From the IMG/VR virus record IMGVR_UViG_2713896791_000019: a DNA stretch of 4,894 nt; one strand, written 5' to 3'. Made by a program: the position numbers and the translations under genes. This document shows, in pieces, positions 523 to 4,779 of this stretch (within the stretch, counting starts at the first letter, position 1; each line of letters begins with the position of its first letter). The notes under the pieces are model-generated. The model saw nothing but the letters and a program-made list of their open reading frames with translations. It did not search any database and was not told where the DNA came from. This DNA is from a virus. Taxonomy: Duplodnaviria > Heunggongvirae > Uroviricota > Caudoviricetes.

Positions 523-572
523 NNNNNNNNNNNNNNNNNNNNNNNNNNNNNNNNNNNNNNNNNNNNNNNNNN
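523..572. other. run of 50 unresolved bases (N); gap or masked segment
   Basis: Literal n characters at 523-572. Confidence 0.97.
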
Positions 573-2130: not shown

Positions 2131-2159
2131 AGTTTAGAAAAATGAACTTTTCAGGTCAA
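2131..2159 (-). promoter_or_regulatory. candidate leftward sigma70 promoter (PL-like)
   Basis: On minus strand: -35 TTGACC (2159..2154), 17-bp spacer, -10 TAAACT (2136..2131). Lies directly next to the operator-like palindrome. Confidence 0.3.
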
Positions 2160-2177
2160 TGTTTTTTTATCAAAACA
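2160..2177. promoter_or_regulatory. operator-like palindrome TGTTTT-N6-AAAACA, distal copy (candidate OL)
   Basis: TGTTTTtttatcAAAACA has perfect 6-bp inverted arms, identical to the arms of the palindrome at 2882-2899. Confidence 0.5.
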
Positions 2178-2243
2178 TTTTAAGCAGGCAGCTGTTAAGC
2201 CATCACCACGATGGCATACAGTTAATCAAATAGATGAGGTCGG

Positions 2244-2882
2244 TTAAATATCTTGTTGAATTTTAAAGCATACGCCCAATATGCAAGATAGATCATCCAG
2301 CATAATTGAAGGGTAGCGAGGATTCGTGGGGACTAAAAGAATATCCGGCCCTTCTATCTCCAGTTTACGAATGACAGGTGTTGTGGTCCCTTTGGGTAAG
2401 GCAAGGACAATATTTCCTGGTTGTACGGTTCGATTGGGATCAACAAAAACTGTTGAACCATTTGGGATGGAAACTCCCCCACCAGATGTTGACATACTGT
2501 CACTCTCTAGAACAACTGCAAAGGTATTGGCCGGGATTTCTCCGACAAGCTGCACACAAGAGGTTATTGAGGAATTTTTCATATAATCACTCCAGCTTGC
2601 TGCCTGCTGAAGTGATAGTAGCGGAACCGTTTTTATCGGCGGTAAAGATAGATCAAGCGAATCACCTGTATTTAACTCTCCTCCATTAAGAAGCCAATTT
2701 TCGTTTACTTTCAATATTTTTGCCAGTGAACTTATGTAACGCGAGGACGGCGCTCCTCCACCGTTTATCCATTGACTTACGGAGCCTTTTGATGCGCCAG
2801 TGGCATTGACAAGGTCTTTGCCTTTCAGGTTTAGCGCATGCATACGTTGGGTTATGCGTTCAGATATTGTTTGCTTGCTCAT
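2244..2882 (-). CDS. cI: CI-like prophage repressor (N-terminal XRE-type HTH, C-terminal S24 LexA-like autopeptidase)
   Basis: 212 aa. LAKILKV is identical to lambda CI. C-terminal motifs align with lambda CI: SDSM (Ser129) to GNSM, VFVDPNRTVQPGNIV to LILVDPEQAVEPGDFC, VIRKL (Lys173) to FKKL, and NPRYPSIM to NPQYPMIP. Divergent from a Cro-like gene. Confidence 0.93.
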   Translation of the reverse strand: MSKQTISERITQRMHALNLKGKDLVNATGASKGSVSQWINGGGAPSSRYISSLAKILKVNENWLLNGGELNTGDSLDLSLPPIKTVPLLSLQQAASWSDYMKNSSITSCVQLVGEIPANTFAVVLESDSMSTSGGGVSIPNGSTVFVDPNRTVQPGNIVLALPKGTTTPVIRKLEIEGPDILLVPTNPRYPSIMLDDLSCILGVCFKIQQDI

Positions 2883-2899
2883 GTTTTGATTTTAAAACA
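2882..2899. promoter_or_regulatory. operator-like palindrome TGTTTT-N6-AAAACA overlapping the cI start and a PRM-like -10
   Basis: TGTTTTgattttAAAACA. A -10-like TAAAAT (minus strand 2894..2889) ends 6 nt before the cI ATG, and no Shine-Dalgarno precedes cI. Confidence 0.55.
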
Positions 2900-2973
2900 C
2901 AGATGGTTTTGTTTCTTGACTTTCTTTGGTTTTGATTATTAAACTTTTGGCGTTCAGTTTTATGGAGCGACTC
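2900..2973 (+). promoter_or_regulatory. candidate rightward promoter (PR-like) with a degenerate second operator
   Basis: -35 TTGACT at 2916-2921. Weak -10 candidates lie at 2937-2944 (TATTAA with 15-bp spacer). Degenerate palindrome GGTTTTgattatTAAACT at 2928-2945 matches 9 of 12 arm positions. GGAG at 2964-2967 serves the ATG at 2974. Confidence 0.4.
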
Positions 2974-3216
2974 ATGAAAAAATCAGAAGTATTAGGCTAT
3001 TTTGGCGGAGTTGTTAAAACAGCCGCAGCTCTAGGAACGTCAAAAACCACAGTCAGCATGTGGGGGGAAGAGGTTCCGTGGAAATGGGCGTTGCTAATTC
3101 AGGCAGTCACTGCCGGGGCGCTCAAATATGAGTTACACATACCGACGGTTGTCATTCCCGGTTCTGATCATAATCCGCCTTCTAACCAAGGGGGGATTCA
3201 TGAAAATCAAGCATGA
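2974..3216 (+). CDS. ydaS: Cro-like HTH regulator of the YdaS family, 80 aa
   Basis: GGAG 6 nt upstream of ATG 2974; the ORF opens at a TTG at 2926 but that start lacks an RBS. Product MKKSEVLGYFGGVVKTAAALGTSKTTVSMWGEEVPWKWALLIQAVTAG fits the recalled YdaS/Cro-like HTH pattern. Divergent from the repressor and followed by a ydaT-like gene. Confidence 0.75.
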   Translation: MKKSEVLGYFGGVVKTAAALGTSKTTVSMWGEEVPWKWALLIQAVTAGALKYELHIPTVVIPGSDHNPPSNQGGIHENQA

Positions 3217-3625
3217 ACACATCCGCATGGCGATGAATGCCTGGGCGCGTCCTGATGGCGAAAAAGTTCCGGCAGCTGGAATAACCCAGGCTTATTTTGA
3301 GTTGGGTATGACGTTTCCTGAACTGTATGACGACAGCCATCCGGAAGCCCTGGCTCGCAATACCCAGAAAATTTTCCGCTGGGTAGAGAAAGACACCCCT
3401 GATGCAGTTGAAAAAATTCAGGCGTTGTTACCAGCGATCGAAAAGGCAATGCCACCTTTGCTGGTGGCCAGAATGCGCAGCCACAGTTCAGCTTATTTTC
3501 GGGAGCTGGTGGAGACGCGGGAGCGACTGGTGAGAGACGCTGATGATTTTGTCGCAGTGGCAATCGCCGGTTTCAATCAGATGAACCGTGGTGGCCCGGC
3601 AGGAAATGCTGTGGCAGTACATTGA
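3200..3625 (+). CDS. ydaT: YdaT-like regulatory protein (recalled 'toxin YdaT' family), 141 aa
   Basis: GGGGGG at 3190-3195, then ATG at 3200. N-terminus MKIKHEHI matches what I recall of YdaT-family proteins. Overlaps the Cro-like gene by 17 nt. The longer ORF from 3128 has no RBS. Confidence 0.7.
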   Translation: MKIKHEHIRMAMNAWARPDGEKVPAAGITQAYFELGMTFPELYDDSHPEALARNTQKIFRWVEKDTPDAVEKIQALLPAIEKAMPPLLVARMRSHSSAYFRELVETRERLVRDADDFVAVAIAGFNQMNRGGPAGNAVAVH

Positions 3626-3696: not shown

Positions 3697-4779
3697 ATGG
3701 CTAACGCCTGGCTCAGATTATGGCATGACATGCCAAATGACCCTAAGTGGCGAACAATTGCCAGGGTGTCAGGGCAGCCAATTGCAACAGTGATGGCAGT
3801 GTATATCCACCTCCTGGTGAGCGCGTCACGAAATGTCACGCGAGGTCACATTGATGTCACGACAGAAGATTTGGCAAGTGCGCTCGACGTGACAGAAGAG
3901 GTAATTGATTCAATTTTGCAGACGATGCAGGGGCGGGTACTTGATGGTGATTTAATCACTGGATGGGAAAAACGCCAGGTGCTTAAAGAGGACAACGGCA
4001 ATATTTCGCAAACCGCAAAATCTCCTGCAGAGCGCAAGAGGGCGCAGCGAGAGAGGGAAAGAAAGCGGGAACAAAATGGCGATTGTCACGGCGCGTCACG
4101 AAATGTCACGCACATGTCACGACGAGTCACGACAGATAAAGATACAGATAAAGATACAGATAAAGATACAGATCAAGAAGATCAAAACACTATGGTCCAT
4201 GGCGTAAAAAACGCCACGAACCAGGCAGGGGATGTTCAGACCGTCAATCCTGGTCAGCCAGCAGGCACGACACCGGAAGCCGATTCAGCGTATGCGCTGA
4301 AAGCCGATTCGGGCGCTGTGCAGCAGGTGATGACCGCAGGGTCGGAGCAATCACACCAACTGCAGCAGCCTGAAGCCGATTCCGCCATTCAGCGGGAAGC
4401 CGATCGGGTAGTCCCGGAAAGCACCGGGCAGTCTGTGGGACGAGTGGATTATCCGGATGTGTTCGAACAGGTCTGGCGGGAATACCCGTTGCGTGCTGGG
4501 GCAAACCCGAAGAAATCCGCTTTCAGTGCCTGGAAGGCCAGATTGCGCGAGGGGGTGCCACCAGAGACCATGCTGGATGGTGTGAGGCGTTACGCGAGAT
4601 ACCTGGCGGCGACCGGGAAAGCGGGAACGGAATTTGTTCAGCGAGCGACGACGTTTTTTGGGCCGGACCGGAATTTTGAAAACCCCTGGTTGCTCCCGGT
4701 AAGCGGCACGAACAACCAGCGTTGTGTGAATCATATTTCTGAACCGGATACCGAAATTCCGCCGGGATTCAGGGGGTGA
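3697..4779 (+). CDS. phage replication initiator / replisome organizer (functional analogue of lambda O), 360 aa
   Basis: AAGAGG at 3686-3691, then ATG at 3697 (the ORF opens at GTG 3691). N-terminus ANAWLRLWHDMPNDPKWRTIA fits the recalled replisome-organizer N-terminal pattern (W-x-R/K-L, DPK). It sits between the regulators and a helicase-loader gene and contains iteron-like repeats. Confidence 0.85.
   Translation: MANAWLRLWHDMPNDPKWRTIARVSGQPIATVMAVYIHLLVSASRNVTRGHIDVTTEDLASALDVTEEVIDSILQTMQGRVLDGDLITGWEKRQVLKEDNGNISQTAKSPAERKRAQRERERKREQNGDCHGASRNVTHMSRRVTTDKDTDKDTDKDTDQEDQNTMVHGVKNATNQAGDVQTVNPGQPAGTTPEADSAYALKADSGAVQQVMTAGSEQSHQLQQPEADSAIQREADRVVPESTGQSVGRVDYPDVFEQVWREYPLRAGANPKKSAFSAWKARLREGVPPETMLDGVRRYARYLAATGKAGTEFVQRATTFFGPDRNFENPWLLPVSGTNNQRCVNHISEPDTEIPPGFRG
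3825..3861. repeat. iteron-like array 1: four GTCACG/GTCACA repeats at 10-11 bp spacing
   Basis: GTCACG at 3825, 3835 and 3856, GTCACA at 3845. An inverted copy CGTGAC lies at 3888-3893. GACAGAAGA is repeated at 3861-3869 and 3891-3899. Confidence 0.6.
4085..4131. repeat. iteron-like array 2: five GTCACG repeats at 10-11 bp spacing
   Basis: GTCACG at 4085, 4095, 4105, 4116 and 4126. The 21-bp block GCGCGTCACGAAATGTCACGC at 4091-4111 is identical to 3821-3841. Confidence 0.7.
4132..4173. repeat. 12-bp tandem repeat ACAGATAAAGAT, 3.5 copies, A-rich
   Basis: Exact copies at 4132-4143, 4144-4155 and 4156-4167, with a partial copy to 4173. In frame they encode TDKDTDKDTDKD. Confidence 0.85.

What the first reader, a model, noticed from the sequence alone, without database searches (positions are those of the whole stretch)
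2882..2945. Operator palindrome sits on the cI start codon and cI appears leaderless
Seen: TGTTTTgattttAAAACA abuts the cI ATG, a -10-like TAAAAT ends 6 nt before the ATG, and there is no Shine-Dalgarno sequence. A 9-of-12 degenerate copy overlaps the -10 region of the rightward promoter candidate. Established: lambda cI is translated from a leaderless PRM transcript and OR sites overlap PRM and PR. Inference: the same autoregulatory logic applies here, with occupancy of the perfect site shutting off cI transcription.
Basis: partly seen in the sequence, partly recalled or inferred. Interest (0 to 1): 0.4.

Follow-up and report, generated by a model that had tools for sequence, protein, structure and literature searches.

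The report
Operator covering a leaderless repressor start
This is the control region of a common but unstudied lambda-like E. coli prophage: three repressor-binding sites lie between the repressor and Cro genes, and one sits on the repressor's promoter and start codon, so its mRNA probably has no leader, an ordinary lambda-style design with tighter spacing.

Summary
TGTTTTgattttAAAACA lies at 2882-2899 and overlaps the cI ATG by one base. On the cI strand, TAAAAT ends 6 nt before the ATG, and cI has no Shine-Dalgarno sequence.

On its own the palindrome is not statistically rare. Four other things show it is an operator:
- The same arms recur at 2160-2177, beside a leftward promoter.
- It is one of three 16-mers spaced exactly 23 bp apart (2883, 2906, 2929).
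- In cI relatives of 84-85% identity, substitutions fall in the spacers.
- More distant relatives (Symbiopectobacterium and metagenomes) also place a GTTTW-N6-WAAAC site against the repressor ATG.

The -10 hexamer lies at -12..-7 relative to the ATG. That matches lambda PRM and CP-933P PRM, and CP-933P has a 5'-RACE-mapped start on the ATG. Leaderless cI is therefore likely but remains unmapped here.

The geometry also differs from lambda. The sites sit about 10.5 bp closer to cI, the middle site is centred at -31.5 rather than -42, and the PR and PRM -35 hexamers overlap. Lambda-type self-activation therefore cannot be assumed.

Verdict: a new member of a known kind, of modest interest.

The parts
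2244..2882 (-). cI-type repressor gene, 212 aa (HTH plus S24 self-cleavage domain). The true start is the ATG at 2882.
   Evidence: Pfam HTH_3 and Peptidase_S24. PDB hits to full-length lambda cI and to the 434 and P22 c2 N-terminal domains, which align from residues 1-6. An in-frame TAA lies 4 codons upstream, and no other start codon occurs before M14. Homologue N-termini align at this start.
2883..2898 (.). Operator site a (OR3-like), GTTTTGATTTTAAAAC. It is the core of the 18-bp palindrome 2882-2899 and lies at -16..-1 relative to the cI AUG.
   Evidence: Invariant in about 105 close copies. One change in a relative with 85% cI identity, while the adjacent spacer changes at 3 of 7 positions. 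A site abutting the ATG is also present in L009, L146, L006 and L149.
2889..2894 (-). Candidate PRM -10 hexamer TAAAAT (5/6), at -12..-7 relative to the A of the ATG.
   Evidence: Lambda TAGATT and CP-933P GATAAT sit at the same position. A qualifying hexamer ends exactly at -7 in about 5.5% of shuffles.
2912..2917 (-). Position of a PRM -35 at 17-bp spacing. It reads AAGAAA (3/6), which is weak.
   Evidence: Read directly. It overlaps the PR -35 by 2 bp.
2906..2921 (.). Operator site b (OR2-like), GTTTTGTTTCTTGACT. One half-site is perfect (GTTTTG); the other half is the PR -35. Centre at -31.5 from the cI AUG.
   Evidence: Exactly 23 bp from sites a and c. 16/16 conserved in L002/L003 while both flanking spacers vary. 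This is the weakest of the three assignments: it matches site a at 10/16, and part of its conservation is explained by the -35.
2929..2944 (.). Operator site c (OR1-like), GTTTTGATTATTAAAC. It lies between the PR -35 and -10 and overlaps the -10 by 5 bp.
   Evidence: Conserved in L002/L003. L009 and L006 have the same site/-10 arrangement with -10 TAAACT.
2916..2945 (+). Candidate PR: TTGACT (2916-2921), 18 bp, TAAACT (2940-2945). It drives cro, ydaT and O.
   Evidence: Promoter scan. The CP-933P paaR2-ydaS intergenic region contains the same hexamers and spacer length (my reading). Both starts there were mapped by 5' RACE (PMC8630535).
2974..3216 (+). cro gene (P22_Cro family), with SD GGAG at 2964-2967.
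   Evidence: Pfam P22_Cro, E=1e-15. PDB 1rzs P22 Cro, E=2.5e-8. Anti-SD duplex -5.6 kcal/mol.
2161..2176 (.). OL distal operator GTTTTTTTATCAAAAC. Its 18-bp form, 2160-2177, has the same arms as site a. It lies just upstream of the PL -35.
   Evidence: Conserved in the O157:H7 copy. Relatives have paired sites downstream of cI.
2132..2147 (.). OL proximal operator GTTTAGAAAAATGAAC, between the PL -35 and -10.
   Evidence: One arm mismatch. The arms are kept in the O157 copy while the central spacer and the flanks change.
2131..2159 (-). Candidate PL: TTGACC (2159..2154), 17 bp, TAAACT (2136..2131).
   Evidence: Promoter scan. Its -10 hexamer is the same as that of PR.
3200..3625 (+). ydaT, the CII functional equivalent. 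It is likely to activate a leftward establishment promoter that also feeds cI with a leadered mRNA.
   Evidence: Pfam YdaT_toxin. PDB 8bt1 CP-933P YdaT, E=4e-79. Function taken from PMC8630535 and PMC9986795.

Best explanation
The stretch 2882-2945 is the right operator (OR) of a lambda-like prophage immunity region.

Layout (read from the sequence):
- Three 16-bp sites of the form GTTTW-N6-WAAAC start at 2883, 2906 and 2929, 23 bp apart. They lie between the divergent cI (leftward) and cro (rightward) genes.
- Site c overlaps the -10 of PR and site b covers its -35.
- Site a, the perfect palindrome, covers the -10 (TAAAAT, -12..-7) and the start point of the cI maintenance promoter.

Transcript (inferred): that promoter starts at the A of the cI AUG, giving a leaderless mRNA. 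A dimer on site a blocks RNA polymerase and shuts off cI transcription.

Likely order of events (inferred, untested):
- In a lysogen, cI on site c, and on the OL proximal site, silences PR and PL. The PR and PRM -35 hexamers overlap, so silencing PR also frees the weak PRM.
- At higher cI levels, sites b and a fill and limit cI synthesis.
- After induction, Cro, which shares an SK..VS.W recognition-helix motif with cI, fills site a and turns cI off.
For: Genes: cI has an HTH plus an S24 domain, Cro is of the P22_Cro family, and the CII equivalent is YdaT-type.

Sites:
- Exact 23/23 bp spacing, against 23/24 bp in lambda.
- GTTTW-N6-WAAAC occurs 3 times against 0.06 expected, and the 18-bp arm pattern twice against 0 expected. 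All occurrences are in the OR or OL gaps.
- In 105 close copies the 62-bp block from site c to the ATG is invariant. The one exception is at a contig end. Eight distinct substitutions fall in the 29-nt cro leader.
- In relatives with 84-85% cI identity the changes cluster in the 7-nt spacers.
- Relatives with 39-57% identity keep the recognition helix SKGSVSQW. They keep GTTTW/WAAAC sites, one of them 0-1 nt from the ATG, and a pair of sites downstream of cI.

Leaderless transcript:
- No SD: +0.9 kcal/mol, against -5.6 to -11 for the neighbouring genes.
- The start codon is AUG.
- The -10 is at -12..-7, as in lambda and in CP-933P. CP-933P was shown to be leaderless by 5' RACE and N-terminal sequencing (PMC8630535).
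- The Symbiopectobacterium relatives also have a 5/6 hexamer ending at -7.
- Leaderless repressor mRNAs are also documented for RacR (PMC9638921) and PY54 cI (PMC4488713).
Against: - There are no transcript or binding data for this element. The published cases are different proteins.
- The -10-like hexamer is part of the AT-rich centre of the operator. Site c carries an equally good AATAAT on the cI strand, so the hexamer may be a by-product of the operator sequence.
- The -35 is poor (3/6) and lies under site b. It is therefore unclear how PRM would fire in a lysogen if site b is occupied.
- One relative has no qualifying -10 hexamer at the right position (L005). Another carries a perfect TATAAT ending at -30, which would give a roughly 23-nt leader (L149).
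- RacR has leadered as well as leaderless transcripts (PMC9638921).
- The palindrome by itself is not statistically unusual.
Confidence: 0.65

Rival explanations
1. cI is made mainly from leadered transcripts that start upstream. The sources would be a YdaT-activated establishment promoter beyond cro, or a promoter inside the cro leader or at site c. Translation would start without an SD on the AU-rich leader. The TAAAAT hexamer would be only the AT-rich centre of an operator.
For: - A YdaT/CII equivalent about as close as CP-933P's is present. In CP-933P it activates a leftward PRE (PMC8630535).
- Site c carries AATAAT on the cI strand.
- A weak leftward promoter match lies at 3017..2988.
- RacR uses several promoters (PMC9638921).
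- The upstream region is unstructured and AU-rich.
Against: - A maintenance promoter must fire while cI occupies the PR-repressing site c. A promoter at site c would be off in a lysogen.
- The leftward match at 3017..2988 is no better than chance: 3 promoter matches were found against 2.2 expected.
- The -10 position at -12..-7 is shared with two relatives and with two experimentally leaderless systems.
- PRE-type transcripts probably coexist with PRM transcripts rather than replace them.
Confidence: 0.22
2. Site a is an operator, but it is essentially a Cro site, in the manner of PY54 OR3. Its role would be to switch cI off after induction rather than to give cI self-repression.
For: - Both perfect palindromes are the innermost sites (2882-2899, and 2160-2177 upstream of the PL -35). 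High-affinity cI binding there would silence cI without silencing PR or PL.
- The promoter-proximal sites carry a GTTTA half-site instead.
- PY54 Cro binds only a 16-bp palindrome next to the repressor gene (PMC4488713).
- Lambda Cro prefers OR3 (established knowledge).
Against: - cI and Cro share the SK..VS.W helix motif, and in the lambda-like phages studied both proteins bind all sites.
- Affinity order cannot be read from sequence.
- This rival is a refinement of the main explanation and does not exclude it.
Confidence: 0.4
3. The palindrome is a chance feature of AT-rich intergenic DNA, or it acts as an RNA hairpin masking the AUG in a leadered transcript.
For: - Inverted repeats with 6-bp arms arise in 10-16% of shuffles.
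- The hairpin would include the A of the AUG.
Against: - The same arms recur at OL, with 0 expected.
- The site is conserved while the spacers drift.
- Distant relatives show the same placement.
- The RNA hairpin is only -3.6 kcal/mol, weaker than shuffled sequences (z=+1.0).
- No Rfam family matches.
Confidence: 0.03

Closest known systems
Phage lambda OR/PRM with leaderless cI
   Same: - Divergent cI (HTH plus S24 domain) and cro genes.
- Three pseudo-palindromic operators 23-24 bp apart.
- The OR1-like site lies on the PR -10 and the OR2-like site on the PR -35.
- The PRM -10 is at -12..-7, so the transcript starts at the AUG.
- No SD, a weak PRM -35, and a second operator cluster at PL.
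   Different: - cI is only about 24% identical to lambda cI.
- Sites are 16 bp, GTTTW-N6-WAAAC.
- The whole array lies about 10.5 bp closer to cI: site a at -16..-1 against OR3 at -27..-11, and the middle site centred at -31.5 against -42.
- The PR and PRM -35 hexamers overlap, whereas in lambda they are 12 bp apart.
- OL shows two clear sites 29 bp apart, not three.
- There is no N gene; the CII function is of the YdaT type.
CP-933P (E. coli O157:H7) paaR2/ydaS switch (Jurenas et al. 2021, PMC8630535)
   Same: - The same prophage family, with ydaT about equally close (8bt1 E=4e-79).
- A similar intergenic length: 91 bp here, 97 bp there.
- PR reads TTGACT-18-TAAACT in both.
- The PRM -10 ends 6 nt before the ATG in both.
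- The CP-933P repressor mRNA was shown to be leaderless by 5' RACE and N-terminal sequencing.
- Its palindromes with a GTTTAG half-site overlap PRM and PR.
   Different: - The CP-933P repressor is PaaR2, an unrelated fold with no S24 domain, followed by a toxin-antitoxin pair. Its Cro equivalent is YdaS, not P22_Cro.
- Its PRM-proximal palindrome sits at -29..-12, as in lambda, and does not abut the ATG.
- It has four 18-bp repeats rather than three 16-bp sites.
Telomere phage PY54 OR3 with leaderless cI and cro (PMC4488713), and Rac prophage racR PracR3 (PMC9638921)
   Same: - PY54: a 16-bp palindrome next to the prophage repressor gene, bound by Cro, which shuts off repressor transcription.
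- Both systems: repressor mRNA that begins at the AUG.
   Different: - The proteins and operator sequences are unrelated.
- PY54 Cro binds a single site and cro is itself leaderless. Here cro has a roughly 22-nt leader with GGAG.
- RacR also has leadered promoters.

Membership tests
Lambda-type immunity switch (cI / OR / Cro) | Divergent genes for a cI-type repressor (HTH plus S24/LexA-like self-cleavage domain) and a small Cro-type repressor | tested here: met
   Pfam HTH_3 and Peptidase_S24; P22_Cro. PDB hits to lambda cI 3bdn, the 434 and P22 c2 N-terminal domains, and P22 Cro 1rzs.
Lambda-type immunity switch (cI / OR / Cro) | Several related, partly symmetric operators about two helical turns apart in the intergenic gap | tested here: met
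   Sites start at 2883, 2906 and 2929 with 23-bp spacing. Enrichment. Conservation of sites against spacers. Site b is the weakest.
Lambda-type immunity switch (cI / OR / Cro) | Operators overlap the core elements of PR and PRM | tested here: met
   Site c overlaps the PR -10, site b the PR -35, and site a the PRM -10 and start. The promoters are sequence predictions only.
Lambda-type immunity switch (cI / OR / Cro) | A second operator cluster at a leftward early promoter (OL/PL) | tested here: met
   Sites at 2132-2147 and 2161-2176 around TTGACC-17-TAAACT. Relatives have paired sites downstream of cI.
Lambda-type immunity switch (cI / OR / Cro) | The middle operator is centred near -42 of PRM, so bound repressor can activate PRM (positive autoregulation) | tested here: not met
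   The middle site is centred at -31.5 if the start is the AUG; lambda OR2 is at -42. This feature is specific to lambda, 434 and P22 rather than to all switches of this kind.
Lambda-type immunity switch (cI / OR / Cro) | cI and Cro both bind these sites, with opposite order of preference | not testable with these tools
   Needs EMSA or footprinting.
Leaderless repressor mRNAs (lambda cI, PaaR2, RacR, PY54 cI) | The transcription start coincides with the A of the AUG | not testable with these tools
   No transcript data are available. Predicted from the -10 at -12..-7.
Leaderless repressor mRNAs (lambda cI, PaaR2, RacR, PY54 cI) | AUG start codon and no Shine-Dalgarno sequence upstream | tested here: met
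   ATG at 2882. Anti-SD duplex +0.9 kcal/mol, against -5.6 to -11 for neighbouring genes. The same holds in L002, L003, L009, L146 and L149.
Leaderless repressor mRNAs (lambda cI, PaaR2, RacR, PY54 cI) | A -10 hexamer ending 6 nt before the AUG | tested here: met
   TAAAAT in the window, TAGATT in lambda and GATAAT in CP-933P, all at -12..-7. AATAAT at the same place in L009 and L146.

The most novel reading that the evidence does not exclude
This immunity type may be a compacted switch that cannot use lambda's contact activation.
- The PR and PRM -35 hexamers overlap, and the OR2-equivalent sits on the PRM -35.
- Maintenance synthesis of cI would then be switched on indirectly, by relief of promoter competition when cI silences PR at site c.
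- It would be switched off directly at the start-codon operator.
- The two identical perfect palindromes that bracket the cI gene, 707 bp apart, would act as a dedicated pair. Either they are Cro-specific, or cI bridges them by looping.
Probability: 0.3. Interest if true: 0.4.

Novelty: new member of a known kind. Interest (0 to 1): 0.27.

Why it matters
- Prevalence: this immunity region is common. 1035 of 5426 complete E. coli genomes carry at least 80% of it, including O157:H7. Its repressor is less than 30% identical to any studied phage repressor.
- Practical use: defining its operators and its probable leaderless start gives a map for studying induction and superinfection immunity of these prophages.
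- Annotation: it explains a recurring error. RefSeq calls the repressor as a 112-aa fragment and a phage record calls it as 200 aa. In both cases the true start, which has no ribosome-binding site, is skipped.
- Concept: it adds one more case to an established theme and does not change it.

Tried and rejected
- RNA-structure reading of the palindrome: the hairpin is -3.6 kcal/mol and weaker than shuffles. Rejected.
- Rfam scan of the window: no family matched.
- Significance of the palindrome on its own: not significant. The case rests on recurrence and comparative data instead.
- YdaT site: I asked whether the TTGATT inside sites a and c marks a YdaT (TTGATT-N6-AATCAA) site. It does not. The only decent match is at 3193-3210, at the cro/ydaT junction, and the number of matches with up to 3 mismatches equals chance.
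- GAAAAATGAACTTTTC (2137-2152): I first took this for an OL site. It is not conserved in the O157 copy. The correct register is 2132-2147.
- Literature search for the operator sequences: no paper found. A search for TSS maps of O157 prophages gave nothing usable for this locus.
- The protein search found a narrow family of 15 hits. The genome scan added only one full-length relative.
- Alternative starts: M14 (2843) would delete helix 1 of the HTH domain, and M101 (2582) would remove the HTH domain altogether. Both rejected as the main start.

Full report
WHAT THE WINDOW IS

The window is the immunity region of a lambda-like E. coli prophage. It is 100% identical to E. coli 2011C-4251 and 98% identical to induced phages vB_EcoS-640R1 and vB_EcoS-813R8. 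At least 80% of the 1.6-kb core is present in 1035 of 5426 complete E. coli genomes.

The genes are:
- cI-type repressor, 2882..2244 on the minus strand, with HTH_3 plus Peptidase_S24 domains.
- cro, 2974-3216, of the P22_Cro family.
- ydaT, 3200-3625, the CII functional equivalent. It matches CP-933P YdaT (PDB 8bt1) with E=4e-79.
- An O-like replication gene, 3697-4779.

The repressor is a distinct immunity type. Outside its own three phage records it is less than 30% identical to any phage repressor in the collection. Only 15 database clusters match it.

THE OBSERVATION

- TGTTTTGATTTTAAAACA is at 2882-2899. T2882 pairs with the A of the cI ATG.
- On the cI strand the sequence reads ...TGTGTTTTAAAATCAAAAC-ATG. 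TAAAAT therefore ends 6 nt before the ATG.
- The 20 nt upstream of cI cannot pair with the 16S 3' end: +0.9 kcal/mol. The values for cro, ydaT and O are -5.6, -11.0 and -7.1.
- The '9-of-12' copy is the site at 2929-2944. Over the 16-bp core it matches at 14 of 16 positions.
- That site overlaps the -10 of the rightward promoter match TTGACT-18-TAAACT.

IS THE START CODON RIGHT?

This matters, because public annotation disagrees.
- RefSeq annotates only 112 aa (window 2244..2582), even in the 100%-identical genome.
- The phage record annotates 200 aa, starting at M14 (2843).
- The ATG at 2882 is the only start codon between an in-frame TAA four codons upstream and M14.
- The 434 repressor and P22 c2 DNA-binding domains align from residues 1-6 of the 212-aa protein.
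- The first 13 residues are conserved as protein in relatives down to 31-41% identity.
- A start at M14 would remove helix 1 of the domain.

The true start is therefore 2882. Gene finders appear to miss it because it has no ribosome-binding site. The RefSeq start, by contrast, has a GGAG.

IS THE PALINDROME MORE THAN CHANCE?

On its own it is not. A 6-bp-arm inverted repeat with a 4-8 nt spacer turns up in 10-16% of shuffles of this AT-rich stretch. The 14/16 direct repeat appears in 0.3-6.5% of shuffles. The case comes from four other lines of evidence.

(i) Recurrence.
- The same arms, TGTTTT-N6-AAAACA, recur at 2160-2177. That gives two matches in the window against 0.00 expected.
- The looser form GTTTW-N6-WAAAC occurs three times against 0.06 expected, at 2161, 2883 and 2929.
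- A one-mismatch copy lies at 2132.
- All of these lie in the two gaps flanking cI.
- The left pair brackets a leftward promoter match, TTGACC-17-TAAACT. That is the expected OL/PL.

(ii) Spacing.
- A third site, GTTTTGTTTCTTGACT at 2906-2921, lies exactly midway between sites a and c.
- The three starts are 23 and 23 bp apart. In lambda the spacings are 23 and 24 bp.

(iii) Conservation pattern.
- Among about 105 near-identical copies from viral and metagenome collections, the 62 bp from site c to the ATG never vary. The one exception is at a contig end.
- Eight different substitutions fall in the 29-nt cro leader.
- In copies whose cI is 84-85% identical, the 7-nt spacers change: CATCTGT becomes CTCTAGT or CTTTAGT, and CAAAGAA becomes AAAAGAA.
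- In those same copies the three 16-mers keep 47 of 48 positions.

(iv) Distant relatives. More distant relatives keep the recognition-helix sequence SKGSVSQW. They also keep the same half-sites and the same layout.
- Symbiopectobacterium purcellii, 46% identity...GTTTAATAATACGAAC-ATG, with two further sites 23 and 22 bp upstream.
- A metagenome clade, 52-57% identity in the N-terminal domain: three sites, the last being GTTTAGAATAATTAAC-T-ATG.
- A marine contig, 39% identity: GTTTAGTATGCTAAAC-ATG.
- Where sequence extends far enough downstream of cI (L009, L146 and the 85% relative L003), there is also a pair of sites there.

The operator reading is therefore well supported. Site b is the least secure of the three, because half of it is the PR -35.

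IS cI LEADERLESS?

This cannot be shown without RNA data. The sequence evidence is nevertheless consistent.
- cI has an AUG start and no SD.
- A 5/6 -10 hexamer lies at -12..-7 relative to the A of the AUG.
- I checked the two best-documented cases on real sequence. Lambda has TAGATT at -12..-7. CP-933P has GATAAT at -12..-7.
- For CP-933P, the paaR2 start was mapped to the AUG by 5' RACE and confirmed by N-terminal sequencing (PMC8630535).
- The Symbiopectobacterium clade also has a 5/6 hexamer ending at -7. The metagenome clade and the marine contig have hexamers ending between -9 and -6.
- Chance placement exactly at -7 is about 6% per lineage, and within -9..-6 about 20-30%.
- RacR (PMC9638921) and PY54 cI (PMC4488713) are further leaderless prophage repressors. 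This is a recurrent design.

Caveats:
- The hexamer is the AT-rich centre of the operator, and site c carries an equally good AATAAT.
- The -35 is weak (AAGAAA, 3/6).
- A YdaT-activated establishment promoter very probably supplies leadered cI mRNA as well.
- A maintenance promoter at site c is unlikely on functional grounds, because cI must occupy site c to hold PR off.

WHERE IT DEPARTS FROM LAMBDA

All positions below are relative to the cI AUG.

| Feature | Window | Lambda | CP-933P |
|---|---|---|---|
| cI-proximal site (site a / OR3 / IR1) | -16..-1 | -27..-11 | -29..-12 |
| Centre of the middle site (site b / OR2) | -31.5 | -42 | not determined |
| Centre of the PR-proximal site (site c / OR1) | -54.5 | -66 | not determined |
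| PR -35 | -39..-34 | -53..-48 | -45..-40 |

- The operator array is shifted about 10.5 bp towards cI.
- The PR -35 overlaps the PRM -35 position (-35..-30) by 2 bp.
- Repressor on the middle site would sit on the PRM -35 rather than beside it. The lambda contact-activation mechanism therefore cannot be assumed.
- Two polymerases cannot occupy PR and PRM together. This suggests that silencing PR may itself be what allows PRM to fire.
- Both perfect palindromes are the innermost sites, next to the two ends of cI. Strong cI binding there would shut off cI without repressing PR or PL. A Cro-preferred role, like lambda OR3 or PY54 OR3, fits at least as well as cI self-repression.

These points are inference. 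They are what I would test first.

REJECTED ALTERNATIVES

- As RNA, the palindrome folds at only -3.6 kcal/mol, which is weaker than shuffled sequences.
- No Rfam family matches the window.
- The operator sequences appear in no paper in the library.

VERDICT

It is incomplete, because there are three sites plus OL. It is too literal in assuming lambda's logic.

This is a new, uncharacterised and widespread member of a well-known kind of switch, with a compact geometry worth a bench test.

Noticed in passing
window 2244-2882 (minus strand): Public annotation miscalls the repressor start. RefSeq/PGAP annotates a 112-aa 'LexA family protein' (2244..2582) in the 100%-identical genome and in O157:H7. 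Phage ON470612 annotates 200 aa from M14 (2843). The intact 212-aa ORF is present in both genomes; the O157 copy differs by 4 aa.
   Followed up: yes
window 2580-2600 (minus strand): The in-frame internal ATG at 2582 (M101, just before the S24 domain) has an SD-like GGAG 7 nt upstream (anti-SD duplex -5.9 kcal/mol). This could be only the reason for the annotation error. It could also allow a product consisting of the C-terminal domain alone.
   Followed up: no
window 3193-3210: GGGATTcatgaaAATCAA overlaps the ydaT ATG. It corresponds to the footprinted CP-933P YdaT site OM, TTGATTcatgaaAATCAA, which I reconstructed from the published primers. Its cro-side half is degenerate. The module junction between different cro genes and the shared ydaT appears to run through this site.
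   Followed up: partly
window 3821-3868 and 4084-4178: Origin-like repeats lie inside the O-like gene. There are about five 10-bp TGTCACGACA-type iterons (4084-4134). A copy of GCGCGTCACGAAATGTCACGC lies about 270 bp upstream. A 12-bp tandem repeat, ACAGATAAAGAT x3.9 (4132-4178), encodes (DKDT)n.
   Followed up: no
window 2916-2945 and 2131-2159; L161 1432-1461: PR and PL use the same unusual -10 hexamer, TAAACT. Its first five bases are an operator half-site. The same hexamer is the predicted PR -10 in the Symbiopectobacterium and metagenome relatives. TTGACT-18-TAAACT is also present in the CP-933P intergenic region.
   Followed up: partly
window 2137-2152: A second palindrome, GAAAAATGAACTTTTC, overlaps the OL proximal site. 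It is broken by three substitutions in the O157:H7 copy, so it is probably fortuitous.
   Followed up: yes
window 523-572 and 1952-2001: Two 50-base runs of N (masked sequence) lie inside or next to leftward ORFs. One of these ORFs is the DUF1391-family gene downstream of PL.
   Followed up: no
window 2199-2215: The GC-rich inverted repeat GCCATCaccacGATGGC lies about 30 nt downstream of the cI stop codon, between cI and the OL sites. It has no T-run, so it is not a canonical terminator.
   Followed up: no
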